Shown: positions 629 to 18,017 of the stretch, one piece after another
Layout: the number at the start of each line of letters is the position of its first letter
How positions within the stretch are numbered: the first letter of the stretch is position 1
From: Pseudomonadota bacterium
Lineage (GTDB): Bacteria > Pseudomonadota > Gammaproteobacteria > CALCKW01
Direction: 5' to 3'
DNA length: 64,000 nt
Assembly: GCA_039196715.1 (NCBI GenBank)
Contig: JBCCUP010000008.1
Coordinates: 5,488 to 69,487, forward strand
Made by a program: the position numbers and the translations under genes
The notes under the pieces: generated by a model
Seen by the model: the letters and a program-made list of their open reading frames with translations, nothing else
Database searches by the model: none
Told to the model about the DNA's origin: nothing

Positions 629-638
629 CCGAGCGCGT

Positions 639-1748: not shown

Positions 1749-2683
1749 GCGGCTTCTCCGTCACAGAACCCACGCCGCGGTCGAAACGCATCGCAGCCAC
1801 CCTCGTGGTGCTCTACGCGCTGATCACGATGATCCCGCTCCTGTGGATTTTCATGACCGGCTTCAAGTCACCGTCGGATGCGATTGCGTACCCGCCGAAG
1901 GTGGTGTTCGACCCCACCCTCGAGGGCTACGTCAACCTCTTCACCACGCGCACCCGGCAAACCCAGGAGTACCTCGACGCCAACCCGCCTGAAACCTGGT
2001 ACGAGGAGATCGTGCGCCAGTACGACATGACCGTCGTCGGTCCCTCGAAATTCGGCGAGCGTTTCTTCAACTCGATCATCATCGGGTTCGGCTCGACGTT
2101 CCTCAGTGTGTTCCTTGGCACCCTGGCGGCCTACGCGTTCAGCCGTTTCCGCATTACCTTCGCCGATGACCTGCTGTTCTTCATCCTCTCGACGCGGATG
2201 ATGCCGCCGGTGGCGGTCGCGATACCGATCTTCCTGATGTACCGGCAACTCGGGTTGAGCGACACCCACCTCGGCATGATCCTCCTCTACACCGGCGTGA
2301 ACATCTCGCTCGCGGTCTGGCTGCTCAAGGGCTTCATCGACGAGATCCCGCGCGAGTACGAGGAGGCCGCGCTGATCGACGGCTACACGCGCTTCCAGGC
2401 GTTTTACAAGGTGGTTCTACCGCAGGCAGCGACCGGCATTGCCTCCACCGCGATCTTCTGCCTGATCTTCGCGTGGAATGAATACGCCTTCGCGGTGCTG
2501 TTGACGTCCGCCACTGCGCAGACCGCGCCACCGTTCATTCCGACGATTATCGGCGTCGGCGGCCTCGACTGGCCGGCGGTCGCGGCAGGCGCGACGATCT
2601 TCCTGCTGCCGGTCATGATCTTCACGATTCTGCTGCGCAAGCACCTGCTGCGCGGCATCACCTTCGGGGCGGTGCGCAAATGA
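1745..2683 (+). CDS. ABC transporter permease (MalG/UgpE-like)
   Basis: The ATG at 1745 overlaps the upstream stop (ATGA). The signature EEAALIDGYTRFQAFYKVVLPQA matches binding-protein-dependent transport permeases. The ORF-track start at 1643 is probably an upstream over-extension. Confidence 0.8.
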   Translation: MSGFSVTEPTPRSKRIAATLVVLYALITMIPLLWIFMTGFKSPSDAIAYPPKVVFDPTLEGYVNLFTTRTRQTQEYLDANPPETWYEEIVRQYDMTVVGPSKFGERFFNSIIIGFGSTFLSVFLGTLAAYAFSRFRITFADDLLFFILSTRMMPPVAVAIPIFLMYRQLGLSDTHLGMILLYTGVNISLAVWLLKGFIDEIPREYEEAALIDGYTRFQAFYKVVLPQAATGIASTAIFCLIFAWNEYAFAVLLTSATAQTAPPFIPTIIGVGGLDWPAVAAGATIFLLPVMIFTILLRKHLLRGITFGAVRK

Positions 2684-2868
2684 AGCGGTTTTTCAGAGAT
2701 CTGTTGCGGTTTCGGCGCGGCCCCTGGGAACTGGTTGCGTCCGTGCTCATCGGCCTGGGTGTCGTCATGCTGATGCAGCCCTTTTTCATGTGGGCTTTCA
2801 CCTGGTCCTTCATTGTCACGCTGACGGGAACGGTGATGTTCATCGTCGTCAGCCACTTTCCGGCGTAA
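2680..2868 (+). CDS. small two-TM membrane protein, DUF2160-like (as found in glycerol-type ABC uptake operons)
   Basis: 62 aa and hydrophobic. Its start overlaps the permease stop (ATGA). Its position between the permeases and the ATPases mirrors Rhizobium-type glycerol ABC operons. Confidence 0.55.
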   Translation: MKRFFRDLLRFRRGPWELVASVLIGLGVVMLMQPFFMWAFTWSFIVTLTGTVMFIVVSHFPA

Positions 2869-3046
2869 CTGTCCAATGAAAAAACGTAGCGAGGACGGTC
2901 AAGTGCAAGGAACGAGTAGCCGATACGGCGCACCGTCAGAGGACGAGACTTATCGCGTAGACAGGCTCGTTCCGAGCAACCGGTACGCCGGAGCGGAAGT
3001 GACGCGGCAATTGGCCGCCGCAGTCGTTTTTTTCGGGCAGTGAGAG

Positions 3047-4144
3047 ATGGCTGAGATCATTGTCAAGAACGTTCGCAAGCAATTCGACGACTTCGTCGCC
3101 GTGAAGGAGAGTTCCTTCACTGTTGACGACGGCGACTTCTTCATGCTGCTCGGGCCGTCGGGCTGCGGCAAGACCACGACGCTTCGTATGATTGCAGGCC
3201 TGGAACTTCCGACCGCTGGCCAGATCTTCCTCGACGGCGAGGAGATCGCGCAGAAGCCGCCGTCGCAGCGCGACATCGCGTTCGTGTTCCAGATGTTCGC
3301 GCTGTACCCGCACATGAACGTGCGCAAGAACATCTCCTACCCACTGGTCTCGCAGGGTATGGCGCGGGCCGATGTGCGGCGCAAAGTCGCCGAGGTGGCG
3401 GCTATCCTCGGCATCGAGGACATCCTCGATTCCCCCGTCGGCGGGCTCTCGGGCGGCGACCGACAGCGTGTGGCTCTCGGTCGTGCGATCGTGCGCGAGC
3501 CCAAGGCCTTCATGATGGACGAGCCACTCGGCGCCCTGGACGCGGAGTTTCGCGAACACATGGCGCAGGAGCTGCGGGCGCTGCACGACAGCATGGGTGC
3601 AACCACGGTGTACGTGACCCACGATCAGCTCGAAGCCATGCAGATGGGCGACAAGATCGTCGTGATGAACAACGCGGTGGTCGAGCAGTTCGGCACGCCA
3701 CGCGAAGTCTACGACACGCCCGCCACGTTGTTCGTCGCAAACTTCATCGGCTCGCCGTCGATGAACCTCCTGCCATTCAACGGTAACGTCTCGACCGGTG
3801 ATACCGAAGTGGCGCTGGCCGGCAGCACCCTGTCGGTACCGGAGGTGCGCGAGGCCGCGGCGGGTGAGCTGGTGCTCGGGGTGCGCCCGGAGCAGGTGCA
3901 GCTCACCGATTCGGGCGCTCTGCGCGGTGAGGTGATCACCACCGAATACCTCGGCACCACGCAGATCGTCACGGTGTCCACCGCACACGGGGAGCTCAAG
4001 GCGCGGGTCGGTTCAGACCGCGCTGTGCAGGTGGGAGACACCACCGGGCTCGCGATCAACGCGGAGACCGTGACGCTCTTCGACCAGGCATCGGGTCGAG
4101 CGTTGCGCTCGGCACTCAACGAGGACGTGTTAAGCCGTGGCTGA
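3047..4144 (+). CDS. ABC transporter ATP-binding protein (MalK/UgpC family) 1
   Basis: Walker A GPSGCGKTT, signature LSGGDRQRVALGRA, and a C-terminal TOBE-like regulatory domain. Confidence 0.9.
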   Translation: MAEIIVKNVRKQFDDFVAVKESSFTVDDGDFFMLLGPSGCGKTTTLRMIAGLELPTAGQIFLDGEEIAQKPPSQRDIAFVFQMFALYPHMNVRKNISYPLVSQGMARADVRRKVAEVAAILGIEDILDSPVGGLSGGDRQRVALGRAIVREPKAFMMDEPLGALDAEFREHMAQELRALHDSMGATTVYVTHDQLEAMQMGDKIVVMNNAVVEQFGTPREVYDTPATLFVANFIGSPSMNLLPFNGNVSTGDTEVALAGSTLSVPEVREAAAGELVLGVRPEQVQLTDSGALRGEVITTEYLGTTQIVTVSTAHGELKARVGSDRAVQVGDTTGLAINAETVTLFDQASGRALRSALNEDVLSRG

Positions 4145-5141
4145 AGTCAATTTACAAGGCGTGACCAAACGCTTCGGTGCCCAGCGCGGGGTCGAGGATG
4201 TCGACTTGCTTGTCGAGGACGGGTCCTTTGTCGTGTTGCTCGGCCCAACCGGCGCGGGCAAGACCACCACGCTGCGGTTGGTCGCGGGCCTCGAGAAGGC
4301 CGACGCGGGCACCGTCTCGATTGGCGGGCGAGAGGTCAACAGCGAGACGCCGGCCCAGCGCGACGTGGCCATGGTGTTTCAGCAGTACTCCCTCTACCCG
4401 CACATGTCGGTGCGCGACAACCTCGCCTTTCCGCTGCGCTCGCCGATCATGAACCTCGCTGAGGACGCGATCGCGCGCAAGGTGCAGGACATCGCCGAGG
4501 TGCTGCACATCTCGCACAAGCTCGACAACCGCGCCACCGCGCTTTCGGGCGGTGAGATGCAGCGCGTCTCGATCGGGCGCGCGCTGGTGCGCGACCCGTC
4601 GATCTACCTCATGGACGAACCGCTCAGCTCACTCGACGCCAAGTTGCGCGCCGAGTTGCGGGTCGAGCTCAAGCGCATCCACGCCGAGATGGCCGCGACA
4701 CTGCTCTATGTCACCCACGATCAGATCGAGGCGATGACCATGGCGAGCCAGATCGGCGTGCTCGATGAAGGTCGGCTCGTGCAGTTTGGCACGCCGCGAG
4801 ACATCTACGAAAACCCGCACACCGCGTACGTGGCGGCGCGGCTCGGTCAGCCGCGCATCAACCTGCTGCCGGCGGACCTGTTTGGTGCTGGCGCACCGGC
4901 GACAGCCTCGCAGATCGGGCTGCGCCCGGAGCATATCGTGCTGGGCAGCGGGCAGGCTGCGACGGTCGTCCGGGTCGAACACCTGGGTGACCAGACCCGC
5001 CTGCACCTGAAACTGGCCGAGCACGACATCGTGACGCTGGTCGACGCCGGCACCGCAGCCTCACCCGGCGACACCCTGCAGGTGTCCGCGTCCAACCCCC
5101 TGTACTTTGACGCGCACGGCGCGCGCGTCGCGACAGCATAG
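4137..5141 (+). CDS. ABC transporter ATP-binding protein (MalK/UgpC family) 2
   Basis: The GTG start overlaps the upstream stop. Walker A GPTGAGKTT and signature LSGGEMQRVSIGRA. Two ATPase genes per transporter is characteristic of glycerol-type importers. Confidence 0.9.
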   Translation: MAEVNLQGVTKRFGAQRGVEDVDLLVEDGSFVVLLGPTGAGKTTTLRLVAGLEKADAGTVSIGGREVNSETPAQRDVAMVFQQYSLYPHMSVRDNLAFPLRSPIMNLAEDAIARKVQDIAEVLHISHKLDNRATALSGGEMQRVSIGRALVRDPSIYLMDEPLSSLDAKLRAELRVELKRIHAEMAATLLYVTHDQIEAMTMASQIGVLDEGRLVQFGTPRDIYENPHTAYVAARLGQPRINLLPADLFGAGAPATASQIGLRPEHIVLGSGQAATVVRVEHLGDQTRLHLKLAEHDIVTLVDAGTAASPGDTLQVSASNPLYFDAHGARVATA

Positions 5142-5154
5142 GAGACAAGCAACC

Positions 5155-6777
5155 ATGGCGCACTTTACCGACAACAAGGAAGATCTGGTCAAACAAGCCA
5201 TCGACGGTGTCGTGGCGTGTTCGGGTGGCAGCCTCGCGCGGCTGGACGGCTACCCGCACATCAAGGTGGTGTACCGCAACGACTGGGACGCAAGCCGGGT
5301 CGCGCTGATCTCCGGTGGTGGCTCCGGGCACGAGCCGGCACACGCGGGCTTCGTCGGCCCGGGCATGTTGACCGCGGCGGTCTGCGGTGAAGTGTTCGCG
5401 TCGCCCTCGGTCGAGGCGGTGCTCGCCGGCATCCTCGCCGTCACTGGCGAGTCGGGCTGCTTGCTGATTGTCAAGAACTACACGGGCGATCGTCTGAACT
5501 TCGGCCTTGCCGCGGAGCGCGCGCGGGCGCTCGGTCGTAAAGTCGAGATGGTGGTGGTCGACGACGACATCGCGCTGCCGGAGTTGCCGCAGCCACGGGG
5601 CGTCGCGGGCACCTTGTTTGTGCACAAGGTTGCCGGTGCACTCGCCGAAGCCGGCAAGGACCTCAGCGAAGTCGCACAAGCGGCTCGCTCGGTGATCGCG
5701 CGCGTCGCGTCGATCGGCATGAGCCTCGACACCTGCACGGTGCCGGGCTCGCCGAAGGAAGACCGCATTGCGCCTGGCAAGGCGGAGCTCGGGCTTGGCA
5801 TACACGGTGAGCCCGGTGTCGAGCAGGTGGATTTCTCGACCGCCTCGGCCGCCATGGGCATGGTCGTCGACAAGCTCAAGGCGGCGGCCGGCGGCGAGCC
5901 GAAGGTCTGCCTGCTGAACAACCTCGGCTCGACCACGCCGCTCGAGATGGCCGTGCTCGCGCAGGCGCTGACCGCCTCCGGTATGGCCTCGCACATCATC
6001 GGACCGGCGCCGATGATGACCTCGCTCGACATGCATGGGTTCTCGGTGTCGGTGCTCGACGCGTCCGAGGCGGAACGCGAGGCGCTGGTCGCTCCGGTGA
6101 CGCTCGCCGCCTGGCCCGGCATGCACACGGTGACTGACCCGGTCGTCGCGCCACTGCCTGACGGCTTGACCCCGATCGAACCGATCCCGTCCAGCAACGC
6201 ACGCACCCGCGCCATCCTCGAAAGCGTGTCGGACCTCCTGATCGGTGCCGAGGGCAAGCTCAACGAACTCGACGCCAAATCCGGCGACGGCGACACCGGC
6301 AGCACGCTGGCCACCGCCGCCCGTGCGCTGAAGGACAGCCTGGACCGGATGCCGCTGGCTGACCTCACGCAGCTCTTCCCGGCGCTTGGCAACGAACTCA
6401 GCCAGACCATGGGCGGCTCGTCCGGTGTGATCCTCGCGATCTACTTCAACGCTGCGGGCGACGCCTGCGCGGGCGGTGCGCCGGTTGAACAGGCGCTGGT
6501 CGAAGGCCTCGAGCGTGTCAGTCAGGTGGGCGGCGCAACCGTCGGCGACCGCACCATGATCGACGCCCTGTCGCCGGCACTCGCCGCGCTTTCCGACGGC
6601 ATTGTGGCGGCAGCAGCGGCGGCGCGCACCGGCGCCGACAGCACGGCAGGTATCCACCGGGCGAAGGCGGGCCGGGCAGCCTACGTGCCGGAGGAAAACC
6701 TCAAGGGCCACAACGACCCGGGCGCTGAAGCAGTGGCCATTCTGTTCGAAGGTCTGGCTGCCGAGATGGGCGCCTGA
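5155..6777 (+). CDS. dak: dihydroxyacetone kinase, ATP-dependent, fused DhaK-DhaL (Dak1+Dak2)
   Basis: A GGAGA RBS lies 9 nt upstream of the ATG at 5155. The Dak1 motif SGGGSGHEPAHAGFVG is present, and the C-terminal Dak2 domain has DGDTG. Confidence 0.85.
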   Translation: MAHFTDNKEDLVKQAIDGVVACSGGSLARLDGYPHIKVVYRNDWDASRVALISGGGSGHEPAHAGFVGPGMLTAAVCGEVFASPSVEAVLAGILAVTGESGCLLIVKNYTGDRLNFGLAAERARALGRKVEMVVVDDDIALPELPQPRGVAGTLFVHKVAGALAEAGKDLSEVAQAARSVIARVASIGMSLDTCTVPGSPKEDRIAPGKAELGLGIHGEPGVEQVDFSTASAAMGMVVDKLKAAAGGEPKVCLLNNLGSTTPLEMAVLAQALTASGMASHIIGPAPMMTSLDMHGFSVSVLDASEAEREALVAPVTLAAWPGMHTVTDPVVAPLPDGLTPIEPIPSSNARTRAILESVSDLLIGAEGKLNELDAKSGDGDTGSTLATAARALKDSLDRMPLADLTQLFPALGNELSQTMGGSSGVILAIYFNAAGDACAGGAPVEQALVEGLERVSQVGGATVGDRTMIDALSPALAALSDGIVAAAAAARTGADSTAGIHRAKAGRAAYVPEENLKGHNDPGAEAVAILFEGLAAEMGA

Positions 6778-6784
6778 CACACCC

Positions 6785-7846
6785 GTGGACAAGTCGCGCC
6801 CACAGGACCTGACCAAGCCCACCGTGAACGACATAGCGCGGGTGGCGGGGGTCAGTCTTGCGACGGTTGACCGGGTGCTCAACGGCCGCCGCGGCGTGCG
6901 CACGCTGACCATTGAAAAGGTCAACAAGGCCATCGATGAGCTCGGCTACGTGCGCGACACTGCCGCGGCAAACCTCGCGCGGCAGAAGACCTACCGCTTT
7001 GTCTTCGTGTTGCCGAACTGGAAGGGGCAGTTTCTCGCAAGCCTGGAGAAGGGTATCGCCGAGACCGTGGTCAGTGCGCGACACGACCGCACCGAGATCC
7101 GCACCATCCGCGTGCCGAACCACGACCACACGGTCCTGGCACGCACCCTGGCCGAGCTCGACGAGAGCGAGATCGACGGCCTCGCGATCATGGCAAAGGA
7201 AACGCCGCTGGTGCGCGACGCGATCGCGAATCTGCGCCGCCGTGGCGTGCCGGTGGTGTCACTGGTGTCCGATCAACCCAACTCGGACCGCGACCACTTT
7301 GTCGGCATCGACAACGTTGCTGCCGGGCGCACGGCCGGCACCTTGCTCGGGCGGTTCACCGGCGGCCAGCACGGCAAGGTGATAGTCGTGATCACCACCA
7401 AACAATCGCGCGACATGATCGAGCGGCGGCTCGGTTTCGACGAGGTGGTCAGTGCGCAGTACCCGCACCTCGCGCCGCTGCCGAGTCTCGAGGGTCAGGA
7501 CGAGCCGGCGCACACCGAGAGGGTCACACGCCGCGCGCTCGAGCAGAACCCGGACACCATCGGCATCTACTCGGTGGGCGCGAGCGTGCAGGGCATCGCG
7601 CGCGCGATCGCGGCGTCGGGTCTGCCGCGGCGGCCGGTGCTGATCGACCACGAGTTGACGGAAAACTCCGCCGCATTGTTGCGCGACGGCACGATCGACG
7701 CCGTCATCACCCAGAACCCCGGTCACCTGGCCCGCAGCGCCTTGCGCGTGTTGCGGGCCAAGTGCGACCACACCCCCGTCATCAAATCGCAGGAAACCAT
7801 CCGGATCGACATCGTCATCCGGGAGAACCTGCCCTCCATGGACTGA
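6785..7846 (+). CDS. LacI family transcriptional regulator
   Basis: N-terminal HTH TVNDIARVAGVSLATVDRVLNG, followed by a periplasmic-binding-fold effector domain. The start is taken as GTG 6785; the ORF-track M at 6602 overlaps dak and was rejected. Confidence 0.7.
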   Translation: MDKSRPQDLTKPTVNDIARVAGVSLATVDRVLNGRRGVRTLTIEKVNKAIDELGYVRDTAAANLARQKTYRFVFVLPNWKGQFLASLEKGIAETVVSARHDRTEIRTIRVPNHDHTVLARTLAELDESEIDGLAIMAKETPLVRDAIANLRRRGVPVVSLVSDQPNSDRDHFVGIDNVAAGRTAGTLLGRFTGGQHGKVIVVITTKQSRDMIERRLGFDEVVSAQYPHLAPLPSLEGQDEPAHTERVTRRALEQNPDTIGIYSVGASVQGIARAIAASGLPRRPVLIDHELTENSAALLRDGTIDAVITQNPGHLARSALRVLRAKCDHTPVIKSQETIRIDIVIRENLPSMD

Positions 7847-7862
7847 CTCAGGAGACGCTGTC

Positions 7863-8918
7863 GTGAAAACCATCAAAGGACCCGCGCTGTTTCTGGCGCA
7901 ATTCGCGGGCGATGACGCGCCCTTCAACTCGTGGGACGCGATCACCAAGTGGGCGGCCGATTGTGGCTACAAAGGTGTGCAGGTGCCCTCGTGGGACGGG
8001 CGCCTGTTCGATCTCGCAACCGCCGCCGAGAGCAAAGACTACTGCGACACCTTCAAGGGGCAGGCGGCTGAGAACGGCATCGAAGTGACCGAACTCTCGA
8101 CCCACCTGCAAGGGCAGCTCGTCGCCGTGCACCCGGCCTACGACACCGCCTTCGACGGCTTCGCCGACCCGTCGGTCCACGGCGACCCGAAAGCGCGACA
8201 GGCCTGGGCGGTCGATCAGGTCATGAAGGCGATTTCAGCCTCAGCCAACCTTGGCATAAAAGACCACGTGAGCTTCTCGGGCGCGCTGGCCTGGCCCTAC
8301 GTCTACCCGTGGCCGCAACGCCCGGCCGGCCTGGTGGAAACCGCGTTTGATGAACTTGCGAAACGCTGGCGCCCGATCCTCGACCACGCCGACGCCAACG
8401 ACGTGAACATCTGCTACGAGATCCACCCGGGCGAAGACCTGCACGACGGCGTCACCTTCGAGATGTTCCTCGAGCGTGTCGACAACCACGCGCGCTGCAA
8501 TATGCTCTACGACCCGAGCCACTACGTGCTGCAGTGCCTCGACTACCTCGACAACATCGACATCTACAAGGATCGCATCAAGATGTTTCACGTCAAGGAC
8601 GCCGAGTTCAACCCGACCGGCCGTCAAGGCGTGTACTCGGGCTACCAGCCCTGGGTGGACCGGGCCGGGCGCTTCCGCAGCCTCGGCGACGGCCAGGTGG
8701 ATTTCGCTGCGGTGTTCTCGAAGATGGCGGCCAACGACTTCGACGGCTGGGCGGTGGTCGAGTGGGAGTGCTGCCTCAAGCACCCCGAGGACGGCGCGCG
8801 TGTGGGGGCGGCGTTTGTCAGCGACCACATCATCCGCGTGACGGAACGGGCCTTCGATGATTTCGCCGACGGCGGCGCGGACGACGCGGCCAACCGCGCC
8901 ATGCTGGGGATCGACTGA
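7863..8918 (+). CDS. sugar phosphate isomerase/epimerase (xylose isomerase-like TIM barrel)
   Basis: 351 aa with a GTG start. This family is typically paired with a Gfo/Idh/MocA oxidoreductase, and the next gene overlaps it (TGATG). Confidence 0.7.
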   Translation: MKTIKGPALFLAQFAGDDAPFNSWDAITKWAADCGYKGVQVPSWDGRLFDLATAAESKDYCDTFKGQAAENGIEVTELSTHLQGQLVAVHPAYDTAFDGFADPSVHGDPKARQAWAVDQVMKAISASANLGIKDHVSFSGALAWPYVYPWPQRPAGLVETAFDELAKRWRPILDHADANDVNICYEIHPGEDLHDGVTFEMFLERVDNHARCNMLYDPSHYVLQCLDYLDNIDIYKDRIKMFHVKDAEFNPTGRQGVYSGYQPWVDRAGRFRSLGDGQVDFAAVFSKMAANDFDGWAVVEWECCLKHPEDGARVGAAFVSDHIIRVTERAFDDFADGGADDAANRAMLGID

Positions 8919-10048
8919 TGGCGCGCATCAAACTGGGTATGGTCGGCGGCGGCAACGACGCCTTTATCGGTGCGGTGCACCGCATCGCAGCGCGGATCGA
9001 CGACAAGTACGAGCTGGTGGCCGGTGCGCTGAGTTCCACGCCGGAAAAGTCGCGGGTGAGCGGCGAGGCGCTTGGCCTCGAGCGGGTCTACGACGACTTT
9101 CAGCAGATGGCCGAGGCCGAGGCAGCGCGCGACGACGGCGTCGAAGCCGTGTCGATTGTCACGCCGAACCACGTGCATTGCGCAGCGGCCGTTGCGTTTC
9201 TGGAGAAGGGCATTCACGTCATCTGCGACAAGCCGCTCACCTCGACCCTTGACGACGCGCACACGCTGGTTGCAGCGGCCGAAGCCTCCGACGCGCTCTT
9301 CGTGCTCACGCACAACTACACCGGCTACCCGATGGTGCGGCACGCGCGCGAGATGGTCGTGAACGGCGACATTGGCGCGATCCGCGTGGTGCAAGTCGAG
9401 TACCCGCAGGACTGGCTGACCGTCGAGCAGGACTTCAAGCAGGCGCTCTGGCGCACCGACCCGAACCAGTCGGGCGCCGGCGGTTCGACCGGCGATATCG
9501 GCACCCACGCGTTCAACCTCGCCTGTTTCATCACCGGGCTCGAGGTCGAATCGCTCGCGGCCGACATCCAGGCCTTCGTGCCCGGGCGCCGCGTGGACGA
9601 TAACGCCCACGTGCTGCTTCGCTTCAACGGCGGTGCCCGCGGCATGCTGTGGTCGAGCCAGGTGGCACCGGGCAACGAGAACGCCTTGCGCATCCGCGTG
9701 TACGGCGAAACTGGCGGGCTCGAGTGGGCGCAGGAAGACCCGAATTACCTGCACTACACGCCCTTTGGTGAACCCAAGCGGCTGATCACGCGCAACGGCG
9801 CGGGTGCCGGCGATGCCGCGGCGCGCGTGAGCCGCGTACCACCTGGCCACCCGGAGGGTTACCTCGAGGGCTTTGCCAACCTCTACACCGAGGCGGCATC
9901 GGCCATCGAGGCGGCGCGATCTGGTGGGGCGCTCGCGAGCGATGTGGTCTTCCCGACGGTGCAGGACGGCTTGCGCGGCGTGCAGTTCGTCGCCGCCTGC
10001 GTCGCGTCCTCATCGCAAAACGCGGCGTGGGTGTCACTGGATCGGTGA
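8918..10048 (+). CDS. Gfo/Idh/MocA family NAD(P)-dependent oxidoreductase
   Basis: N-terminal Rossmann motif KLGMVGGGNDAFIGAVH and typical length of 376 aa. Confidence 0.85.
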   Translation: MARIKLGMVGGGNDAFIGAVHRIAARIDDKYELVAGALSSTPEKSRVSGEALGLERVYDDFQQMAEAEAARDDGVEAVSIVTPNHVHCAAAVAFLEKGIHVICDKPLTSTLDDAHTLVAAAEASDALFVLTHNYTGYPMVRHAREMVVNGDIGAIRVVQVEYPQDWLTVEQDFKQALWRTDPNQSGAGGSTGDIGTHAFNLACFITGLEVESLAADIQAFVPGRRVDDNAHVLLRFNGGARGMLWSSQVAPGNENALRIRVYGETGGLEWAQEDPNYLHYTPFGEPKRLITRNGAGAGDAAARVSRVPPGHPEGYLEGFANLYTEAASAIEAARSGGALASDVVFPTVQDGLRGVQFVAACVASSSQNAAWVSLDR

Positions 10049-11000: not shown

Positions 11001-11052
11001 TCGCGGCGCGACGACCCGGCAACCACAGAATCCGTTTCGCGCAGTCGCAGTG

Positions 11053-11340
11053 CGACAACCACAGTGGCTCGTTCGGCATCCGAGGCGCCGCTTCGCGCCT
11101 GTGAACACGCCACGGTCTCGTGGGAGCCGTGTCCTGGCGCAGCCAGACGCGGCGAAAACGGCGAACACGAAGCTCGCAGTCACTGCCGTGTTTCAGTCGG
11201 TCTGTGACAACCCGAATGGCTCGTTCGGCATCCAAGGCGCCGCTTTGCACTCACGGGTGAGATGTCGAGGCCTGCGAACATGCCACGGTCTCGTGGGAGC
11301 CGCATCCTGGCGAAGCCAGACGCGGCGAAAAGATCCGCGC
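11053..11340. repeat. two tandem imperfect copies of a ~153-bp unit in the convergent intergenic region; each copy contains GGCTCGTTCGGCATCC...CCACGGTCTCGTGGGAGCCG...GCCAGACGCGGCGAAAA
   Basis: Direct alignment of 11053-11205 against 11206-11340 is about 85% identical. The unit shares the GTGGGAGC core with the REP-like repeats further downstream. Confidence 0.8.
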
Positions 11341-12751: not shown

Positions 12752-13470
12752 TGAAGAACAGACTCGTGATGGTTCGCCACCACCACAACGCGTTGGAGCT
12801 CGACGACGTCGCGTGCCGCGTGCTGCGGGCCCGCGGATTCGAGCTCGAGCACGTCCACCCGCATGCCGGCGATCCGCTGGGTGTGCCTGCGGACGACGTT
12901 GCCGGCACCATTGTCTACGGCGGCGGCCAGAATGTCACGGAGTTGGAGCGCTTCCCCTACCTGCGCGACGAGATGCAGTGGATGCTCGATTGCCAGTCGT
13001 CCGGCATCCCGGTGCTGGGGATCTGCCTCGGCGCGCAACTGCTCGCGGCGGCGCACGGGGCCGATGTCATGCGGCCCGCAGACGGTCTCTGCGAGTTCGG
13101 CTATTACCCGGTCTTCCCCGTGGACGACAGCGGATTCGTGCCGGCGGAGGGCCTGCACGTGACCGAGGCGCATTTCGAGGCCTTCGAACTGCCGGCGGGC
13201 GCGGTGCACCTGGCGCGCAGCGAGGCCTTCCCGAATCAGGCGTTTCGGGTCGGCGACAATGTCTACGGCTTGCAATTTCACCCGGAAGTGAACACCGAAG
13301 TGTTCCGCGATTGGCAGGCGGACTATTGGACGCCGCATTTCTACGCGTCGCCCGGCAGCCAGAGCGAAACCGAATCACTCGACTTGCACTACCGCCACAC
13401 CGAGGCCCAGGGCGCCTGGTTCGAGGCGCTGTTGCTCAACCTGTTCGGCACGGCGCCGGCCGCCGCCTGA
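12752..13470 (+). CDS. class I glutamine amidotransferase-like protein (GMP-synthase-type GATase domain)
   Basis: The catalytic Cys region reads GIPVLGICLGAQLL. I used the internal ATG at 12752; the ORF-track start at 12556 overlaps the divergent MFS gene. Confidence 0.7.
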
Positions 13471-13508
13471 CTTCAAGGACGCAACACGCACAGCACGCCA
13501 CAGCTCAT

Positions 13509-13863
13509 GTGGGAGCCCGGTCGTCGCGCAGTGACACCGGGGGCCCGCCTAGGGCAAAACGCTGGCTTTAATGTCTTTCGTCGCGTCTCCCCGCGCCTGA
13601 CGGCCCAGGAAGGACGCAACTCCCACGGCTTGCCACAGGCTTCGTGGGAGCCCGGTCGTCGCGAAGCGACACCGGGCGAAGGGGTTAGGCAGCACGCTAA
13701 AGCACTTAGCAGTCAGCGTTTCGTCGCGTCTCGCACAGCGAGGACGCAACTCCCACAGAGGGCTCTGTGTCTTGCTCGCGCCTGATGGCACAGCGCGGAC
13801 ACGGCTCTCACAGGTTGCTACTGAATCTGTGGGAGCGCGGTCGTCGCGCAGGGACACCGGGCG
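13509..13863. repeat. cluster of REP-like palindromic repeats (GTGGGAGCSCGGTCGTCGCGMAGNGACACCGGGSG units at 13509, 13644 and 13829, interleaved with TTCGTCGCGTCTC...GAGGACGCAACTCCCAC modules)
   Basis: Three near-identical ~37-bp units plus inverted CTCCCAC/GTGGGAG arms, read directly from the sequence. They fill the 475-bp intergenic gap between the amidotransferase and the DUF423 gene. Confidence 0.8.
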
Positions 13864-13944
13864 AAAGCGGTGGCGGAGAGTTCAAAAGAAGCGCTTGCAC
13901 CATGCGCCGCGTCTCGCTGTTGCTCGCGCCAGTGTTCGCAGTGT

Positions 13945-14373
13945 TCAACCGTCTTTTTCGGTTTCCGGCGTTCCGGATTGGCGGGCTGATACCACTGAGA
14001 GCACGGCTGTGACCAGCAACAACGCCCAGGCCACCATCAAGGTGACGCCGCCCACCGGGGTGAGGATCAGCAAGCCTTCGAGCGCAAAGGTCACGGAAAT
14101 GTAAATGCTGCCACTGAAGAGCACGGTGCCGAGCACGAACAGACCGGCGCTCCAGTTGAACGCGGGAATGCGCGACAGCGGGCCGCCCGCGTGGGCGGCG
14201 AGCCCGAGGGCCAATGTCACCACCGCGTAGACCTGGTTGTAGCGCACTGCGGTCATGAGGAACCGAAAGTTCTCCTCGCCGACCGGTTCGCGCAGGGCGT
14301 GTTCCGCGTACGCGCCGAACGCCACCGACACAAAACCCAGCACACAGGCTGCGACCAGAATCATGGGTGCCAC
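13945..14373 (-). CDS. DUF423 (YgdD/TMEM256-like) small inner-membrane protein
   Basis: 142 aa with four hydrophobic helices. The glycine-rich motif reads SGSIYISVTFALEGLLILTPVGG. Confidence 0.65.
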   Translation of the reverse strand: MAPMILVAACVLGFVSVAFGAYAEHALREPVGEENFRFLMTAVRYNQVYAVVTLALGLAAHAGGPLSRIPAFNWSAGLFVLGTVLFSGSIYISVTFALEGLLILTPVGGVTLMVAWALLLVTAVLSVVSARQSGTPETEKDG

Positions 14374-14652
14374 CTAACGTCAGCTGTGATCACGGAGTTG
14401 GGCAGGTCTGTGAATCCTGAGGCGGCGAATTGGCTGCTTTGGTTTTCGGTGGTCATCGTGGGGAATTGAACGCTCGTCTGGCTGGCTCGTAGGGCGACAT
14501 TGGCTGGCAGCGCTTGGTCTCAGTGCGGGTTGCGAAGTTCCGCTGTGCAGACGGGTTTTGCTCGCGGTATCCGTGTGCACTCGCTTCGTCGTTGGATAGG
14601 CCTGACGTCACCTTGCGCGGGGACGCCGCTCAAACGGCGTGCCACTGCACCT

Positions 14653-14690
14653 GTGGGAGCGCGGTCGTCGCGCAGTGACACCCGGGGGCC
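14653..14690. repeat. REP-like repeat copy (TGTGGGAGCGCGGTCGTCGCGCAGTGACACCCGGGGGCC) just upstream of the IS110-family element
   Basis: Near-identical to the copy at 13509. Confidence 0.8.
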
Positions 14691-14789
14691 CGCCCAGGGC
14701 GAAGAACTGTGCCTGTGACTCTCGTCGCGTCTCGCTTCGCGAGGACGCAACTTGTATGGTCGATTCCGCAGGTGATACAGAGAAAAACC

Positions 14790-15990
14790 TGTCGGGGTGG
14801 AGGGGCTGACTGACGCGCTTCTGATCCGTTACCGGATACAGACTGTGGGAGTGTATCTCCCGCCCCGTCTCGCTAACGCCAATGTGGAATCTAACGGCCA
14901 GAGCAAACCTGGACCGCCGATTAAGTGCAAGCTTGCGTCAACGAGCCCCCCGACAGGCACCCTAAACCTATCGGAGGACGCCGCTGTGCACAAGTCAGCA
15001 ACAGATCTGTTTATCGGGGTTGATGTGGCCAAACACGAGGTCGTTGTGGCGCGTTCCGATCAGTCAACGGTGCAACGCGTTGGCAACGAACTCGCAGCAC
15101 TTCAGGCTTGGATAGCTGACTTACCTGGACCGTGTGCTGTGCTGATGGAGTCGACCGGGCGATACCACCAGCTGCTCGCTGAGGCACTGCACGCGGCCGG
15201 GCACCGGGTGTACCTCGTCAACGGTCTCAAGCTCAGCCAGTACCGCAAGAGCGTCGGCCAACGTGCGAAGACCGATCCGAGTGACGCGAGGTTGTTGCTG
15301 CGCTACCTCCAGCACGAACACGCCGCGCTGACGCCGTGGCGGCCCACACCCGAAAACATCAGTGCCATCAGGACCTTGCTGAAGCGTCGCAGCGAGGTGA
15401 TCAAGCACACAGTGGCCCTGAGACAGTCATTCAGCGACGTGCCGCAGATCGACACCGCAGAGGTCATCGCCTCGCTCAAGGCGACAGTGGCCAAGCTGGA
15501 CCGGTTGATCAACGGCCTGATCGAGCACCAGGACATCAAAGACGAAGCGCGGCGTTGCCGACAGATCACCGGCGTGGGGCCCCTCACCAGCGCTGCACTG
15601 ACAGCAACCTACTACGCTGGCAACTTCACGCGGGTCGATGCGTTTATCGCGTTCATTGGACTGGATCTGATCGCGAACGACTCGGGGCGCAAGACAGGGC
15701 GGCGGCGCTTGAGCAAGAAGGGGGACTCGGAGGTCAGGCGTCTGTTGCACAACGCAGCGATGTCGGCGTGTCGTGTCGGCAAGTGGAAACAGTACTACGA
15801 GCGTTACCTGGCCCGTGGCTTCGAGCGCACCCAGGCCTTGGTGATCCTGGCGAGGAAGATCGCCAGGGTCGCGTTCAGCCTGCTGAAAACGGGCAGAGAC
15901 TACGACGAGGCACTGTTGTTCGGCTCAGCGTAGAAAACACACAGAAAACGCTTGCTACGCACCATAGAATCTCCCACAGCGGTGACCCGC
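14790..15990 (+). mobile_element. IS110-family insertion sequence (approximate boundaries), inserted within a REP-like repeat cluster
   Basis: It carries a single DEDD-type transposase gene. Flanking sequences contain inverted CTGTGGGAG (about 14858) and CTCCCACAG (about 15970) motifs. No classical terminal IRs are expected for IS110. Confidence 0.6.
14986..15933 (+). CDS. IS110 family transposase (DEDD N-terminal domain plus C-terminal Transposase_20-like domain)
   Basis: A GGAGGA RBS lies 7 nt upstream of the GTG at 14986. The N-terminus LFIGVDVAKHEVVVA carries the DEDD D, and the C-terminal half reads GVGPLTSAALTATYYAGNFTRVDAFIAFIGLDLIANDSGRKTGRRRLSKKG. An upstream in-frame extension to 14797 is possible. 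Confidence 0.85.
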   Translation: MHKSATDLFIGVDVAKHEVVVARSDQSTVQRVGNELAALQAWIADLPGPCAVLMESTGRYHQLLAEALHAAGHRVYLVNGLKLSQYRKSVGQRAKTDPSDARLLLRYLQHEHAALTPWRPTPENISAIRTLLKRRSEVIKHTVALRQSFSDVPQIDTAEVIASLKATVAKLDRLINGLIEHQDIKDEARRCRQITGVGPLTSAALTATYYAGNFTRVDAFIAFIGLDLIANDSGRKTGRRRLSKKGDSEVRRLLHNAAMSACRVGKWKQYYERYLARGFERTQALVILARKIARVAFSLLKTGRDYDEALLFGSA

Positions 15991-16004
15991 CAGCCTCGGA
16001 CTTT

Positions 16005-16147
16005 GTGGGAGTTCGGCCGTCCCGTTGGGACGCCGGACGAATGTCGGTGCCACACAGCCGAATCTCGCGCCGCCGCTTCGCCGCGTGTCACGGTGTGACG
16101 ACGCGGCTCCCACGACTGTCCCTGCCTGCTTCGATCTGTGTGGGAGC
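16005..16147. repeat. two degenerate REP-like copies (TGTGGGAGTTCGGCCGTCCCG..., TGTGGGAGCTTGGCCGTTCCGCTGG...) downstream of the IS
   Basis: They share the GTGGGAGC core and the palindromic tail. Confidence 0.6.
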
Positions 16148-16266
16148 TTGGCCGTTCCGCTGGCCTGCCGCGATTGGATGTGCCTCGCGGTTGACCCTTG
16201 CACCGGCGTCCCCCATCGCGAGCGGCTGTGGCATGCTCACGGTCTGTTTGGCTCTACGTGACCTGC

Positions 16267-17382
16267 ATGCACATCGAACCGTTTGGCGTTGAAATCTGGA
16301 TGAACGCGTGGGAGACGCGGTGCGACTGGAACCTCGCAGAGACCTGCGTCGACAGCCTGACCGTCGCCTCGCTGCTCGAGATCTGCGGTCAGCGCGAGCG
16401 CGACCTCGACACACTGCTGCCCCTGCGCCTCTCCTACGGCGACATCACCGGCTCGCCACGCCTGCGCGCCGCGATCGCGGCCTTGTACAAGACCGCGACC
16501 GAGGACAACGTCATGGTCGCGCACGGCACGATCGGCGCGAACATGCTGGTGCACAGGACTGTCGTCAACCCGGGCGACCACGTGGTCTGCGTGGTGCCGA
16601 CCTACCAGCAACACTACTCGATTCCCGCCAGCCTCGGCGCTGAGGTCGAGACGCTGGCGCTGCGCGAAGCGGACGACTGGCTGCCCGACCTCGACGCCCT
16701 GCGCCGACTGGTGCGGCCGAGCACGCAGCTGATCGCACTGACGAACCCGAACAACCCCACGGGTGCGCTCATGTCCGAGGCGGGTCTGACCGAGATCGCC
16801 GCGATCGCGCGCTCGGTCGGTGCGTGGGTGCTGTGCGACGAGGTGTACCGTGGCACCGAGCAACCCGGCGTCGCCCGCTGTCCGTCGATCGTTGACGTCT
16901 ACGAGCGGGGCATCAGCACGGCGAGCGTCTCGAAGGCCTTTTCGCTTGCCGGCCTCCGGCTCGGGTGGGTCATCGCACCGCGCGACCTGCTCGAGGCCGT
17001 CTCCGTCCACCGCGACTACGACACGATTTCCGTCGGCATGCTGGACGACCACTTTGCCGCGCTCGCGCTCGAGCACAGCGACGCCATCCTGGCACGCAGC
17101 CAACGCATCGTGACCGAAAACCTCGCGGCCCTTTCGGACTGGATGCGCGAGCGGAACACGCTGAGCTGGGTCGTCCCACGGGCCGGCACCACGGCGCTGC
17201 TGAAATACCCGCAGGACACGCCGTCCGAAGCCCTGTGCGTCGACATACTTTCAAAGACCGGTGTGATGCTGACACCCGGCAGTGCCCTCAACATGGAGGG
17301 CTACCTGCGCATCGGGTACGCCAACCACGGCGACGTGCTGCGTGCCGGCCTGGCGCGACTCGACGCGGTGTTCGGTCGCTGA
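16267..17382 (+). CDS. pyridoxal-phosphate-dependent aminotransferase, class I/II
   Basis: 371 aa. The region TNPNNPTGALMS and the fold-type-I segment SVSKAFSLAGLRLGW (PLP lysine) are present. The start is taken as ATG 16267. Confidence 0.8.
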   Translation: MHIEPFGVEIWMNAWETRCDWNLAETCVDSLTVASLLEICGQRERDLDTLLPLRLSYGDITGSPRLRAAIAALYKTATEDNVMVAHGTIGANMLVHRTVVNPGDHVVCVVPTYQQHYSIPASLGAEVETLALREADDWLPDLDALRRLVRPSTQLIALTNPNNPTGALMSEAGLTEIAAIARSVGAWVLCDEVYRGTEQPGVARCPSIVDVYERGISTASVSKAFSLAGLRLGWVIAPRDLLEAVSVHRDYDTISVGMLDDHFAALALEHSDAILARSQRIVTENLAALSDWMRERNTLSWVVPRAGTTALLKYPQDTPSEALCVDILSKTGVMLTPGSALNMEGYLRIGYANHGDVLRAGLARLDAVFGR

Positions 17383-17456
17383 CCCTCTACTCGGCCGCAC
17401 CCGGGTGACGACGCAGCACCCCTGCCCTGTCCAGCGTTGCCCGTTCGCCGCTGCAA

Positions 17457-18017
17457 TCACGGCAGTCGCTGTCGTCGCGCAGCGTCGCTGTGCTGTTCGA
17501 ACCGCAGCGAGAGGCGCGCTGTGCGCACGTCGCCGGTGGCCCGCGCCAACGACACACCGAGCGCGACGCCCGGTGCGACGAACACGTGAAGGCCGGCACT
17601 CACCTCGACGCCGTCGTCGGCAGCGTGCGAGGCCTGGGCGCTCACGGCTCCGTTGAACTCCACCGCCCCCCCAAACACCTTGGCACGCAAGCCGCCGTCG
17701 AAGTTGGCTTGCAGGTCATCGCCGTCGAGCTGCACCCCGAGCAACGCGTAGCTGCTGCGCGAGAGCGTGTAGTCGTGCGTGAGCCCACCGGCCAGACTGT
17801 AGCGTTCTGTGGCGGGCCCCGAGCGCAGGCCCAGACGGTAGATCAAGTCGCCATCAAGCTGCCCGTGCAACACCAGTTCGTGCGCGTAGCGTGGCTGCGA
17901 CAGCCGGTCGTCGAGCTGCACACGGCGGTAATCGAGGTAGTCGTAGCGGATCGCGCTGGCCGCGCCGATCGACGGCAGCGCGGCGCACACGAGCACGAGC
18001 ATCGCGCGCGCGATCAT
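17457..18017 (-). CDS. secreted hypothetical protein, possible small outer-membrane beta-barrel
   Basis: N-terminal signal peptide MIARAMLVLVCAALPSIGAASA. The sequence then shows the alternating hydrophobic pattern typical of beta-strands (YDYLDY, LVLHGQL, YTLSRSSYALLGVQL). Confidence 0.4.
   Translation of the reverse strand: MIARAMLVLVCAALPSIGAASAIRYDYLDYRRVQLDDRLSQPRYAHELVLHGQLDGDLIYRLGLRSGPATERYSLAGGLTHDYTLSRSSYALLGVQLDGDDLQANFDGGLRAKVFGGAVEFNGAVSAQASHAADDGVEVSAGLHVFVAPGVALGVSLARATGDVRTARLSLRFEQHSDAARRQRLP

What the first reader, a model, noticed from the sequence alone, without database searches (positions are those of the whole stretch)
14653..16147. IS110-family element inserted inside a REP-like repeat cluster; upstream non-coding leader is a candidate bridge/guide RNA
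Seen in sequence. A single DEDD-transposase gene (14986-15933) sits between copies of the genome's REP-like palindrome (GTGGGAGCSCGGTCGTCGCG...), and its flanks carry inverted CTGTGGGAG (about 14857) and CTCCCACAG (about 15970). The ~190-nt region 14797-14985 upstream of the recombinase is non-coding but conserved-looking, with no in-frame stops. Established knowledge: IS110/IS1111 elements lack terminal IRs and insert site-specifically, and several subgroups target REP sequences. IS110-type recombinases are programmed by a structured non-coding bridge RNA encoded in the element's non-coding end, which base-pairs with both target and donor. Inference: this copy illustrates REP targeting in this genome, and 14797-14985 may encode its bridge RNA.
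Basis: partly seen in the sequence, partly recalled or inferred. Interest (0 to 1): 0.5.

Follow-up and report, generated by a model that had tools for sequence, protein, structure and literature searches.

The report
REP-targeting IS110 element with bridge RNA
This is an intact 1.2-kb insertion sequence of the IS110 family sitting inside one of the host's short intergenic palindromic repeats, and its upstream non-coding end encodes the kind of guide ("bridge") RNA already known to steer such elements to their target, so it is a well-behaved new member of a known system rather than something new.

Summary
The finding holds, with corrected coordinates. The element is 14753-15970 (1218 bp), flanked by the core dinucleotide CT on both sides. 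It has a 233-nt left end, a 315-aa DEDD recombinase gene (14986-15933) and a 37-nt right end. It interrupts the right arm of one REP-like unit; deleting it restores a sequence identical across the junction to two intact units nearby.

The two inverted 9-mers are not terminal repeats. CTGTGGGAG (14843-14851) lies inside the left end, and CTCCCACAG (15971-15979) is host target DNA. Together they are a guide-target pair.

Across 57 distinct left ends from relatives:
- the left end folds into a closing helix plus two internal-loop modules, with 98% of cells paired and 12 pairs showing compensatory changes;
- the loop segments covary with each element's own flanks (0 of 10,000 permutations reach the observed match).

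This is the architecture published for IS621 and ISPpu10. The recombinase is 46% identical to ISPpu10 and 30% to IS621.

One oddity: the left target guide pairs with its target only in a +1 register or with one bulged nucleotide. A second, near-identical copy elsewhere shows the same pattern.

Verdict: a new member of a known kind, of modest interest. RNA expression and transposition activity were not tested.

The parts
14651..14752 (+). Left part of the interrupted REP-like unit: left arm CTGTGGGAGCGCGGTCGTCGCG, spacer, and the right arm up to ..GAGGACGCAACT. Contains a DNA hairpin at 14727-14748 just upstream of the insertion point.
   Evidence: Repeat families D1-D5. Alignment of the reconstructed empty site to intact units. 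Hairpin MFE -14.9 kcal/mol for 14716-14752.
14751..14752 (+). Left copy of the core dinucleotide CT (last two bases of the left target GACGCAACT).
   Evidence: Homology with relatives begins immediately after this CT. Relatives also show CT immediately before TGTATG.
14753..15970 (+). The insertion sequence itself, 1218 bp. It starts TGTATGGTC and ends CACCATAGAAT. It has no terminal inverted repeats, only the short ATA..TAT sub-terminal pair.
   Evidence: Alignments A2, A3 and A7 with L001-L007 and L092. TGTAT start and ..ATAGAAT end are conserved in about 80 relatives. Removing it restores the REP.
14753..14985 (+). Left non-coding end (LE), 233 nt, which carries the bridge RNA.
   Evidence: Non-coding: in-frame stops in 55 of 57 relatives and variable length mod 3. 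LE is much longer than RE, as in the IS110 group (PMC11208160).
14755..14760 (+). TATGGT, the putative -10 hexamer of a junction promoter. It would be completed only in the excised circle by TTGCTA at 15952-15957, with a 17-nt spacer running across RE-CT-LE.
   Evidence: Read from the sequence. The same TTGCNN-17-TATGKT geometry is seen in L001, Pseudomonas relatives and IS621. P_junc was shown experimentally for ISPpu10. It matches only 8 of 12 consensus positions, so this is an inference.
14766..14795 (+). Optional 5' stem-loop: CCGCAGGT at 14766-14773 pairs with ACCTGTCGG at 14787-14795. It competes with the closing helix for the same strand.
   Evidence: 84% of cells paired against at most 50% in slid controls. 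Compensatory changes at two pairs among the 31 relatives that have the 5' arm. Present in the window's MFE fold.
14788..14797 (+). 5' strand of closing helix P1 (CCTGTCGGGG). It pairs with 14948-14957.
   Evidence: RNAalifold consensus. Pairs 43/238, 44/237 and 51/232 show compensatory changes.
14812..14819 (+). Left target guide (LTG) GACGCGCT, on the 5' side of the target-binding loop. It has the same sense as the left target, so it would pair with the bottom strand.
   Evidence: The equivalent segment covaries with the left flank across relatives: 5.05 of 7 matches against 3.08 +/- 0.18 in permutations, 0 of 10,000 reaching the observed value. In this element it matches GACGCAACT only with a 1-nt shift or bulge. 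The second copy L092 sits at GACGCAGCT.
14820..14842 (+). Hairpin inside the target-binding loop (TCTGATCCG TTAC CGGATACAGA).
   Evidence: Seven pairs, four of them with compensatory changes, 98% paired.
14843..14851 (+). Right target guide (RTG) CTGTGGGAG. It is the exact reverse complement (9 of 9) of core plus right target CTCCCACAG at 15971-15979.
   Evidence: The equivalent segment covaries with the right flank in relatives: GTAGGAG with CTCCTAC, AGTAAAG with CTTTACT. Mean match 5.54 of 7 against 4.82 +/- 0.13, 0 of 10,000 permutations.
14876..14938 (+). Donor-binding loop module. Stem ACGC 14876-79 with GCGT 14935-38. Left donor guide TGTGGAATCT at 14883-14892, against RE end CATAGAATCT. 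Inner hairpin 14895-14916. Right donor guide GTGCAAG at 14925-14931, which pairs with CTTGTAT at the junction using G-T wobbles.
   Evidence: Stem pairs 145/215 and 147/213 are compensatory. Guide and donor matches were read from the sequence. The imperfect RD pairing matches the deviation reported for ISPpu10.
14948..14957 (+). 3' strand of closing helix P1 (CCCCGACAGG).
14986..15933 (+). Recombinase gene, 315 aa, GTG start, RBS GGAGGA at 14973-14978. It has the DEDD RuvC-like domain plus the Tnp domain, with D13, E55, D97, D100 and S233 all present.
   Evidence: Pfam. Invariant columns of an 18-sequence alignment. The relative's ATG aligns with this GTG. 100% match to an NCBI MAG protein; 46% to ISPpu10; 30% to IS621.
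15934..15970 (+). Right non-coding end (RE), 37 nt, ending CATAGAAT. Contains TTGCTA (15952-15957), the putative -35 of the junction promoter.
   Evidence: Alignment A3.
15971..15979 (+). Right copy of the core CT (15971-72) plus the right target CCCACAG. This is the rest of the interrupted REP right arm.
   Evidence: Homology with relatives stops at 15970. CTCCCACAGCGG continues the REP as in 13750-13761.

Best explanation
An intact IS110-group insertion sequence (14753-15970) of the ISPpu10-like clade has inserted into the right arm of a REP-like palindrome at GACGCAACT^CCCACAG.

**What the left end encodes.** It encodes a bridge RNA of roughly 190 nt, about 14766-14957. The RNA has:
- a closing helix;
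- a target-binding loop, with LTG GACGCGCT and RTG CTGTGGGAG on either side of a hairpin;
- a donor-binding loop, with LDG ..GGAATCT and RDG GTGCAAG on either side of a hairpin.

**Inferred mechanism, following IS621 and ISPpu10.**
1. The element excises as a circle.
2. The RE-CT-LE junction creates a promoter (TTGCTA, 17 nt, TATGGT) that drives the RNA and the recombinase.
3. The DEDD/Ser recombinase binds the RNA.
4. The donor loop pairs with the circle junction, and the target loop pairs with both strands of a REP arm.
5. Recombination at the shared CT core inserts the element without a duplication other than the core.

**Shown here:** the boundaries, the core, the REP target, the conserved covarying RNA structure, and guide-to-flank covariation across the clade.

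**Inferred, not shown:** transcription, circle formation and activity of this particular copy.
For: - **Protein.** Pfam DEDD_Tnp_IS110 plus Transposase_20, with catalytic residues conserved.
- **Exact ends.** Set from seven copies of an 81% relative in at least four different flanks, a 97%-identical left end in L092 at another site, and about 80 distant relatives that all start TGTATG and end ..ATAGAAT between ..CT and CTCC(C/T)AC.
- **Empty site.** The reconstruction is identical through the junction to intact REP units.
- **RNA structure.** 25 consensus pairs, 98.4% of cells paired against at most 46% when partners are slid. 12 pairs have compensatory changes. 0 of 500 shuffles reach the observed score.
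- **Guide-target covariation.** LTG-LT 5.05 of 7 against 3.08 +/- 0.18. RTG-RT 5.54 of 7 against 4.82 +/- 0.13. 0 of 10,000 permutations reach either value.
- **This copy's guides.** RTG matches its target 9 of 9. Among 5,922 CT sites in the reconstructed window, REP arms score best under every pairing model. The real site is joint best under the shifted or bulged model.
- **Polarity and layout.** They match IS621 as published and ISPpu10. The IS621 locus shares the TGTAT start, the CT core and the junction-promoter geometry.
Against: - There are no expression data and no circle-junction reads.
- Only one copy lies in the 64-kb window, and only one contig is on record for the identical protein. 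Activity of this copy is therefore unproven.
- In the register used by sister elements, the LTG matches its left target at 0 of 7 non-core positions. This is the worst of 42 guide-flank pairs, and a shift or bulge is needed.
- Rfam has no matching family.
- A covariance model of this clade does not detect the IS621 bridge RNA. RNA homology to IS621 therefore rests on architecture and on protein relatedness of 30% identity.
- The junction promoter matches only 8 of 12 consensus positions.
Confidence: 0.88

Rival explanations
1. The left end is only a 5' UTR and promoter region for the recombinase gene. CTGTGGGAG inside it would then be a chance match or a captured REP fragment with no guide role.
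For: There is no direct evidence of a separate small RNA. No sigma-70-like promoter is predicted in the integrated copy. REP-like 7-mers are common in this region.
Against: - The CTGTGGGAG position is conserved at the same place in left ends from many genera. It changes in step with each host's target: GTAGGAG with CTCCTAC, AGTAAAG with CTTTACT.
- The LTG position covaries with left flanks.
- The helices show compensatory changes.
- The homologous ISPpu10 RNA is reported to be expressed and required for recombination.
Confidence: 0.05
2. CTGTGGGAG and CTCCCACAG are the terminal inverted repeats of a shorter element, about 14843-15979, as the reader's wording 'its flanks carry' implies.
For: The two 9-mers are perfect reverse complements and bracket the gene.
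Against: - Homology with independent copies extends 90 nt further left, to TGTATGGTC at 14753. It stops at 15970, one base before CTCCCACAG.
- CTCCCACAG is the continuation of the host REP.
- IS110-group elements lack terminal inverted repeats.
Confidence: 0.01
3. The element is a decayed or stranded copy. On this view its LTG no longer matches, or never matched, the site it occupies. It would have arrived by off-target insertion relying on the RT match, or the left flank was later exchanged by recombination between REP copies.
For: - In the canonical register the LTG matches 0 of 7 non-core positions.
- Under that register the best sites in the window are REP left arms on the opposite strand, CGACCGCGCT^CCCACAG.
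- ISPpu10 activity drops sharply when LTG-LT pairing is disrupted.
Against: - A second, independent copy with the same LTG sits at GACGCAGCT, the same GACGC-N-RCT pattern. The mismatch is therefore systematic rather than accidental.
- Under a +1 register or a 1-nt bulge, the real site and its paralog rank first of 5,922 CT sites.
- The recombinase ORF and all conserved RNA positions are intact.
Confidence: 0.06

Closest known systems
ISPpu10 of Pseudomonas putida KT2440 (IS110 group). Bridge RNA and REP targeting are described in bioRxiv 10.64898/2026.03.19.712850.
   Same: - Same clade: 46% aa identity, full-length.
- LE starts TGTATG, RE ends ..ATAGAAT, core is CT.
- Inserts at ..CT^CCCAC of a REP arm directly after a target DNA hairpin.
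- LTG pairs with the reverse strand and RTG with the forward strand, with imperfect RD pairing.
- The promoter is split across the circle junction.
   Different: - The window element has a 5' arm of about 30 nt able to form a 5' stem-loop. ISPpu10-type left ends lack it (one search says ISPpu10 lacks the stem-loop).
- Its REP family is different, GACGCAACT^CCCACAG rather than GCAAGCTCGCT^CCCACA.
- The target hairpin ends 4 nt before the cut rather than 1 nt.
- LTG pairing needs a +1 shift or a bulge.
IS621 of Escherichia coli (IS110 group). This is the founding bridge RNA system (PMC11208160; structure in PMC11208158).
   Same: - DEDD plus Tnp recombinase; long LE and short RE.
- LE starts TGTAT; CT core; REP targets.
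- RNA order is 5' stem-loop, then target loop (LTG, hairpin, RTG), then donor loop (LDG, hairpin, RDG).
- Same strand polarity of the guides, the same TGCAAG right donor guide, and the same TTGCNN-17-TATNNT junction geometry.
   Different: - Only 30% aa identity.
- The clade covariance model does not find the IS621 RNA.
- The long-range closing helix P1, which competes with the 5' stem-loop, is a feature seen in this clade. I did not verify whether IS621 has it.
Unnamed metagenomic relatives: L001-L007 and L087 (81% aa; L007 is a Granulosicoccaceae MAG) and L092 (left end about 97% identical).
   Same: - Same ends and same donor guides.
- Nearly identical RNA scaffold.
- They insert at ..GCT^CC(C/G)ACAG of REP-like repeats.
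   Different: The 81% relatives carry a different LTG, CGGGCGCT. It matches their left flanks in the canonical register at up to 8 of 8 positions. L092 carries the window's LTG at a different site.

Membership tests
IS110 family, IS110 group (bridge recombinase elements) | Recombinase with an N-terminal DEDD RuvC-like domain (PF01548) and a C-terminal Tnp domain with a conserved Ser (PF02371) | tested here: met
   PF01548 E 2.9e-23 and PF02371 E 1.8e-18. D13, E55, D97, D100 and S233 sit in invariant columns.
IS110 family, IS110 group (bridge recombinase elements) | Long left non-coding end, short right end, and no terminal inverted repeats beyond a 2-3 bp sub-terminal ATA/TAT pair | tested here: met
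   LE is 233 nt and RE is 37 nt. The ends read ..CCATAGAAT-CT-TGTATGG.., which contains ATA..TAT. The criterion is taken from PMC11208160.
IS110 family, IS110 group (bridge recombinase elements) | Site-specific insertion at a short core shared by donor and target, leaving the core on both sides | tested here: met
   CT is at 14751-52 and 15971-72. The same CT flanks about 80 relatives. The empty site was reconstructed.
IS110 family, IS110 group (bridge recombinase elements) | Structured non-coding RNA in the LE with two internal loops, supported by covariation | tested here: met
   Six helices, 98.4% paired, 12 compensatory pairs, controls clearly lower.
IS110 family, IS110 group (bridge recombinase elements) | Loop segments complementary to the target: the 5' side matches the bottom strand of LT, and the 3' side matches the top strand of RT, each including the core | tested here: inconclusive
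   - For this copy the RTG matches 9 of 9.
- The LTG matches at 0 of 7 non-core positions in the canonical register, although the CT core does match.
- The LTG fits with a +1 shift or a 1-nt bulge, a pattern shared by a second copy.
- Across the clade the feature is met.
IS110 family, IS110 group (bridge recombinase elements) | Loop segments complementary to the donor (the RE-core-LE junction) | tested here: met
   LDG TGTGGAATCT against CATAGAATCT gives 7 identical positions plus 3 wobble-compatible ones. RDG GUGCAAG pairs with CTTGTAT using G-T wobbles. The imperfection is like that reported for ISPpu10.
IS110 family, IS110 group (bridge recombinase elements) | The RNA is expressed and bound by the recombinase, and a circular intermediate forms | not testable with these tools
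   No transcriptome or read data for this MAG are available here.
ISPpu10-like REP-targeting clade | Insertion into REP sequences at ..CT^CC(C/T)AC next to a target DNA hairpin | tested here: met
   The REP unit is interrupted. A hairpin lies at 14727-14748 upstream of the cut. Relatives are inserted in the same way.
ISPpu10-like REP-targeting clade | Bridge RNA lacking the 5' stem-loop (stated for ISPpu10 itself) | tested here: not met
   The window element and 30 other left ends have a 5' arm that forms a covarying stem-loop. Pseudomonas ISPpu10-type left ends lack it. This feature belongs to ISPpu10 itself, not to the whole clade.
IS1111 group | Long RE carrying the RNA, and 7-17 bp sub-terminal inverted repeats | tested here: not met
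   The RE is only 37 nt and there are no long sub-terminal repeats.
Any Rfam RNA family | Match to a curated covariance model | tested here: not met
   No hit with E <= 1 in 13000-18000.

The most novel reading that the evidence does not exclude
Two details go beyond what I found described. Both are small variations within a known mechanism.

1. **Shifted or interrupted left target pairing.** This element's left target guide appears to read its target in a shifted register or across one unpaired target nucleotide: GACGC-GCT against GACGCARCT, seen at two independent sites. That would mean bridge RNA-target pairing tolerates, or even uses, a bulge next to the core.

2. **Two competing helices.** In about half of the clade, the strand CCTGTCGG can pair either with a 5' arm or with a distal 3' arm. 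The first gives the stem-loop reported to act as a brake in IS621. The second gives a helix that closes the whole two-loop RNA. Both pairings show compensatory changes. This suggests a conformational switch between an off state and a guide-competent state.
Probability: 0.3. Interest if true: 0.4.

Novelty: new member of a known kind. Interest (0 to 1): 0.3.

Why it matters
The element adds one well-delimited, apparently intact bridge-recombinase element, with its target, donor and guide segments mapped to the base. It comes from an uncultured gammaproteobacterium-like MAG with its own REP family. It illustrates that the target loop is reprogrammed between close relatives while the scaffold and donor loop stay fixed. 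For genome annotation, it shows that an apparent inverted repeat around an IS110 gene can be a guide-target pair. It also shows that the long open frame upstream of the recombinase is not coding. The shifted LTG register and the competing helices could inform guide design rules for bridge recombinases, if they are confirmed experimentally.

Tried and rejected
- **Rfam.** A scan of 13000-18000 at E <= 1 found nothing.
- **Other copies in the window.** BLAST of the region against the 64-kb window found only REP fragments. The clade covariance model R1 found only the element itself.
- **Metagenome scans.** One used the window-specific LTG region and the other a degenerate sub-clade pattern. Known JGI relatives were not returned either, so the collection probably lacks those short contigs.
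- **R1 against the IS621 locus.** With filters on and with filters off, only noise-level hits appeared. RNA-level homology to IS621 could not be shown this way.
- **Regex extraction of guides.** A first attempt mis-anchored several families. An off-by-two column error affected the RTG. Both were replaced by alignment-column extraction.
- **Left-arm target idea.** Under the canonical register the best sites are REP left arms on the opposite strand. I set this aside once the second copy L092 showed the same GACGC-N-RCT left target.
- **Longer 378-aa protein from 14797.** Rejected. The relatives' start codon aligns with 14986 and the Pfam domain starts right after it. Related left ends carry in-frame stops and indels that are not multiples of three.
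- **Promoter scan of the integrated copy.** It found no sigma-70-like site. The proposed junction promoter matches 8 of 12 positions and would fall below that tool's threshold anyway.
Full report
**1. What is in the sequence**

- The ORF at 14986-15933 (GTG start, RBS GGAGGA at 14973-14978, 315 aa) carries PF01548 DEDD_Tnp_IS110 (E 2.9e-23) and PF02371 Transposase_20 (E 1.8e-18).
- The DEDD residues and the conserved serine lie in invariant columns of an 18-sequence alignment.
- The REP-like motif GTGGGAGCSCGGTCGTCGCG occurs four times exactly in the window, against 0.12 expected.
- The repeat is really a composite unit of about 110-135 nt. It has a left arm CTGTGGGAGCSCGGTCGTCGCG and a right arm ..CGCGAGGACGCAACTCCCACAG.
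- The units lie in intergenic clusters between a GATase gene, a DUF423 gene and an aminotransferase gene.
- The window is 66.7% GC.

**2. Exact boundaries**

- The identical protein is on record on a single NCBI MAG contig labelled Pseudomonadota.
- An 81%-identical relative occurs on several metagenome contigs and in a Granulosicoccaceae MAG.
- Aligning these copies to the window shows that homology starts at TGTATGGTC (14753) and ends at ..CACCATAGAAT (15970). Outside those points the flanks are unrelated, except for ..CT on the left and CTCC(C/G)ACAG on the right.
- A further contig, L092, has a left end about 97% identical to the window's, placed after a different flank. It confirms the left boundary.
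- About 80 more distant relatives (43-50% aa identity) come from Pseudomonas, Stutzerimonas, Halomonas, Methyloversatilis, Thioalkalivibrio, Luteimonas and others. Nearly all start TGTATG 193-234 nt upstream of the gene. Where the right end could be located, it ends ..ATAGAAT. They are inserted at ..CT^CC(C/T)AC of their hosts' REPs.
- Deleting 14753-15972 from the window gives ..GAGGACGCAACTCCCACAG... This is identical through the junction to the intact units at 13636-13768 and 13501-13632.
- The element is therefore 1218 bp, flanked by the core CT, and it splits one REP right arm.

**3. The inverted 9-mers**

- CTGTGGGAG is at 14843-14851, which is 90 nt inside the left end.
- CTCCCACAG is at 15971-15979, which is the core plus host DNA.
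- They are not terminal repeats.

**4. The left end is a structured RNA, not coding sequence**

- 55 of 57 distinct related left ends have stops in the gene's frame, and their lengths vary modulo 3.
- RNAalifold on the 57 left ends predicts these helices (window coordinates):
  - a long-range closing helix, 14788-97 with 14948-57;
  - a short stem, 14802-04 with 14863-65, around a first internal loop that contains a hairpin at 14820-42;
  - a stem, 14876-79 with 14935-38, around a second loop that contains a hairpin at 14895-916.
- On this structure 98.4% of cells form standard pairs, against 34-46% when partners are slid by 1-3 columns.
- 12 of 25 pairs show changes on both sides, and no shuffle of 500 reaches the observed covariation score.
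- The window sequence alone folds modestly better than shuffles (z = -2.5).

**5. The loops read the flanks**

- Durrant et al. (PMC11208160, read) describe the IS621 layout. [quoted passage not shown] Both pairings include the core.
- I extracted the equivalent segments by alignment column.
- The 7 non-core LTG positions match the element's own left flank at 5.05 of 7 on average, against 3.08 +/- 0.18 when flanks are permuted.
- The RTG positions match at 5.54 of 7, against 4.82 +/- 0.13. None of 10,000 permutations reaches either value.
- Individual cases are clear:
  - GTAGGAG guides sit next to CTCCTAC targets in ten families.
  - L017 has AGTAAAG next to CTTTACT.
  - LTGs such as AAGCTCGCT, AAGTCCGCT, CGGGCGCT and AGTTGCGC match their flanks exactly or nearly so.
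- In the window, RTG CTGTGGGAG matches its target 9 of 9.
- The donor loop carries TGTGGAATCT, against RE end CATAGAATCT. It also carries GTGCAAG, which pairs with CTTGTAT at the junction through G-T wobbles. This is the kind of imperfect RD pairing reported for ISPpu10.

**6. The one anomaly**

- In the register used by sister elements, the window's LTG (TGACGCG|CT) matches its left target (GACGCAA|CT) at 0 of 7 non-core positions. This is the worst of 42 pairs.
- The near-identical copy L092 has the same LTG and sits after GACGCAGCT.
- Both sites therefore read GACGC-A-RCT against guide GACGC-GCT. That fits either a +1 register with two wobbles or one bulged target nucleotide.
- I scored all 5,922 CT sites of the reconstructed window:
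  - Under those two models, the true site and its paralog at 13751 rank first.
  - Under the canonical register, the two REP left arms on the opposite strand rank first.
  - Under every model the best sites are REP arms.
- I take the shift or bulge to be real for this element, but only an assay can settle it.

**7. Regulation (inferred)**

- Joining RE to LE through the core gives TTGCTA, a 17-nt spacer, then TATGGT (15952-57 and 14755-60).
- The same geometry is seen in the 81% relative, in Pseudomonas relatives and in IS621.
- The ISPpu10 preprint reports that such a junction promoter drives the bridge RNA, and that the target hairpin plus the element end acts as a terminator in the integrated state.
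- The window has a hairpin at 14727-14748 just upstream of the cut and no sigma-70-like site in the integrated copy.
- The hexamers match only 8 of 12 consensus positions, so this step is an inference.

**8. Comparison with known systems**

- The closest named element is ISPpu10, at 46% aa identity. It is reported to be a bridge RNA recombinase with 97.6% REP preference and a requirement for a target hairpin.
- IS621 is 30% identical. I retrieved its locus from E. coli using the published 177-nt RNA. It shares the TGTAT start, the CT core, the order of RNA modules and the TGCAAG donor guide.
- Differences from ISPpu10:
  - the window element keeps a 5' arm able to form a stem-loop;
  - it uses another REP family;
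  - its hairpin-to-cut distance is 4 nt rather than 1 nt;
  - its LTG register is shifted.
- A covariance model of the clade (R1) recovers the window RNA, by construction, at 140.8 bits. It finds nothing else in the window and does not detect the IS621 RNA. Rfam has no match.

**9. A side observation**

- In the 31 left ends that have the 5' arm, the strand at alignment columns 42-52 can pair with that arm. 84% of cells are paired and two pairs are compensatory.
- The same strand can instead pair with the distal 3' arm to form the closing helix. Column 44 covaries with both partners.
- The two helices cannot form together, which suggests alternative conformations. I did not test this further.

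**10. Verdict**

- The element is a new, unnamed member of the ISPpu10-like clade of IS110-group bridge-recombinase elements.
- Nothing in it lies outside the known mechanism, apart from the small LTG register question and the possible competing helices.
- Expression and activity remain untested. Interest is modest (0.3).

Noticed in passing
window 14766-14797 and 14948-14957; alignment A4 columns 20-27, 42-52 and 229-238: The strand CCTGTCGG can pair either with a 5' arm, giving a 5' stem-loop, or with a distal 3' arm, giving a helix that closes the whole bridge RNA. Both pairings show compensatory changes, and column 44 covaries with both partners. ISPpu10-type Pseudomonas left ends lack the 5' arm. 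This may be a conformational switch.
   Followed up: partly
window 13457-13865, 14601-14752, 15971-16170 and 11007-11300: The REP-like repeats are composite units of about 110-135 nt (left arm, variable spacer, right arm). They are clustered in intergenic regions between a GATase-like gene, a DUF423 gene (13945-14373, minus strand) and an aminotransferase gene (16270-17382). At least two more unoccupied sites carry the same GGACGCAACT^CCCAC sequence, at 13751 and 13621.
   Followed up: partly
L092:1-420 (ENA ERZ27264111, contig k141_305653): This is a second copy of essentially the same element, with a left end about 97% identical, in another assembly. It sits after a different REP right arm (..AATGACGCAGCT). 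Its called gene is only 249 aa including a spurious N-terminal extension, so this copy may be truncated or frameshifted.
   Followed up: partly
L069, right flank directly after the element (Methyloversatilis sp. XJ19-49): The right target CTCCCACAGGGACAG is repeated five times in tandem immediately downstream of the insertion sequence.
   Followed up: no
L042, about 45 nt downstream of the element (Halomonas salifodinae): A second, solo copy of the right end plus target (GGGGCAACATAGAATCTCCCAC) follows the complete element.
   Followed up: no
L046, L049, L050, L051, L063, L065 (Pseudomonas sp. KNUC1026): In this multi-copy relative the right end is enlarged to about 250 nt and contains a REP-like palindrome. 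It looks like a passenger picked up inside the element.
   Followed up: no
L057 (1.5-kb contig labelled Cellulosimicrobium sp.): A Pseudomonas-type element sits in a Pseudomonas-type REP flank, on a short contig assigned to an actinomycete. Assembly contamination is the likely explanation.
   Followed up: no
L091:1489-1560 (E. coli O114:H49 strain 90-9280, IS621 locus): A 68-nt partial copy of the IS621 left end sits directly upstream of a complete IS621. The partial copy ends exactly at the DNA encoding the left target guide (ATCGGGCCT). It looks as if the guide-encoding DNA itself had served as a target.
   Followed up: no
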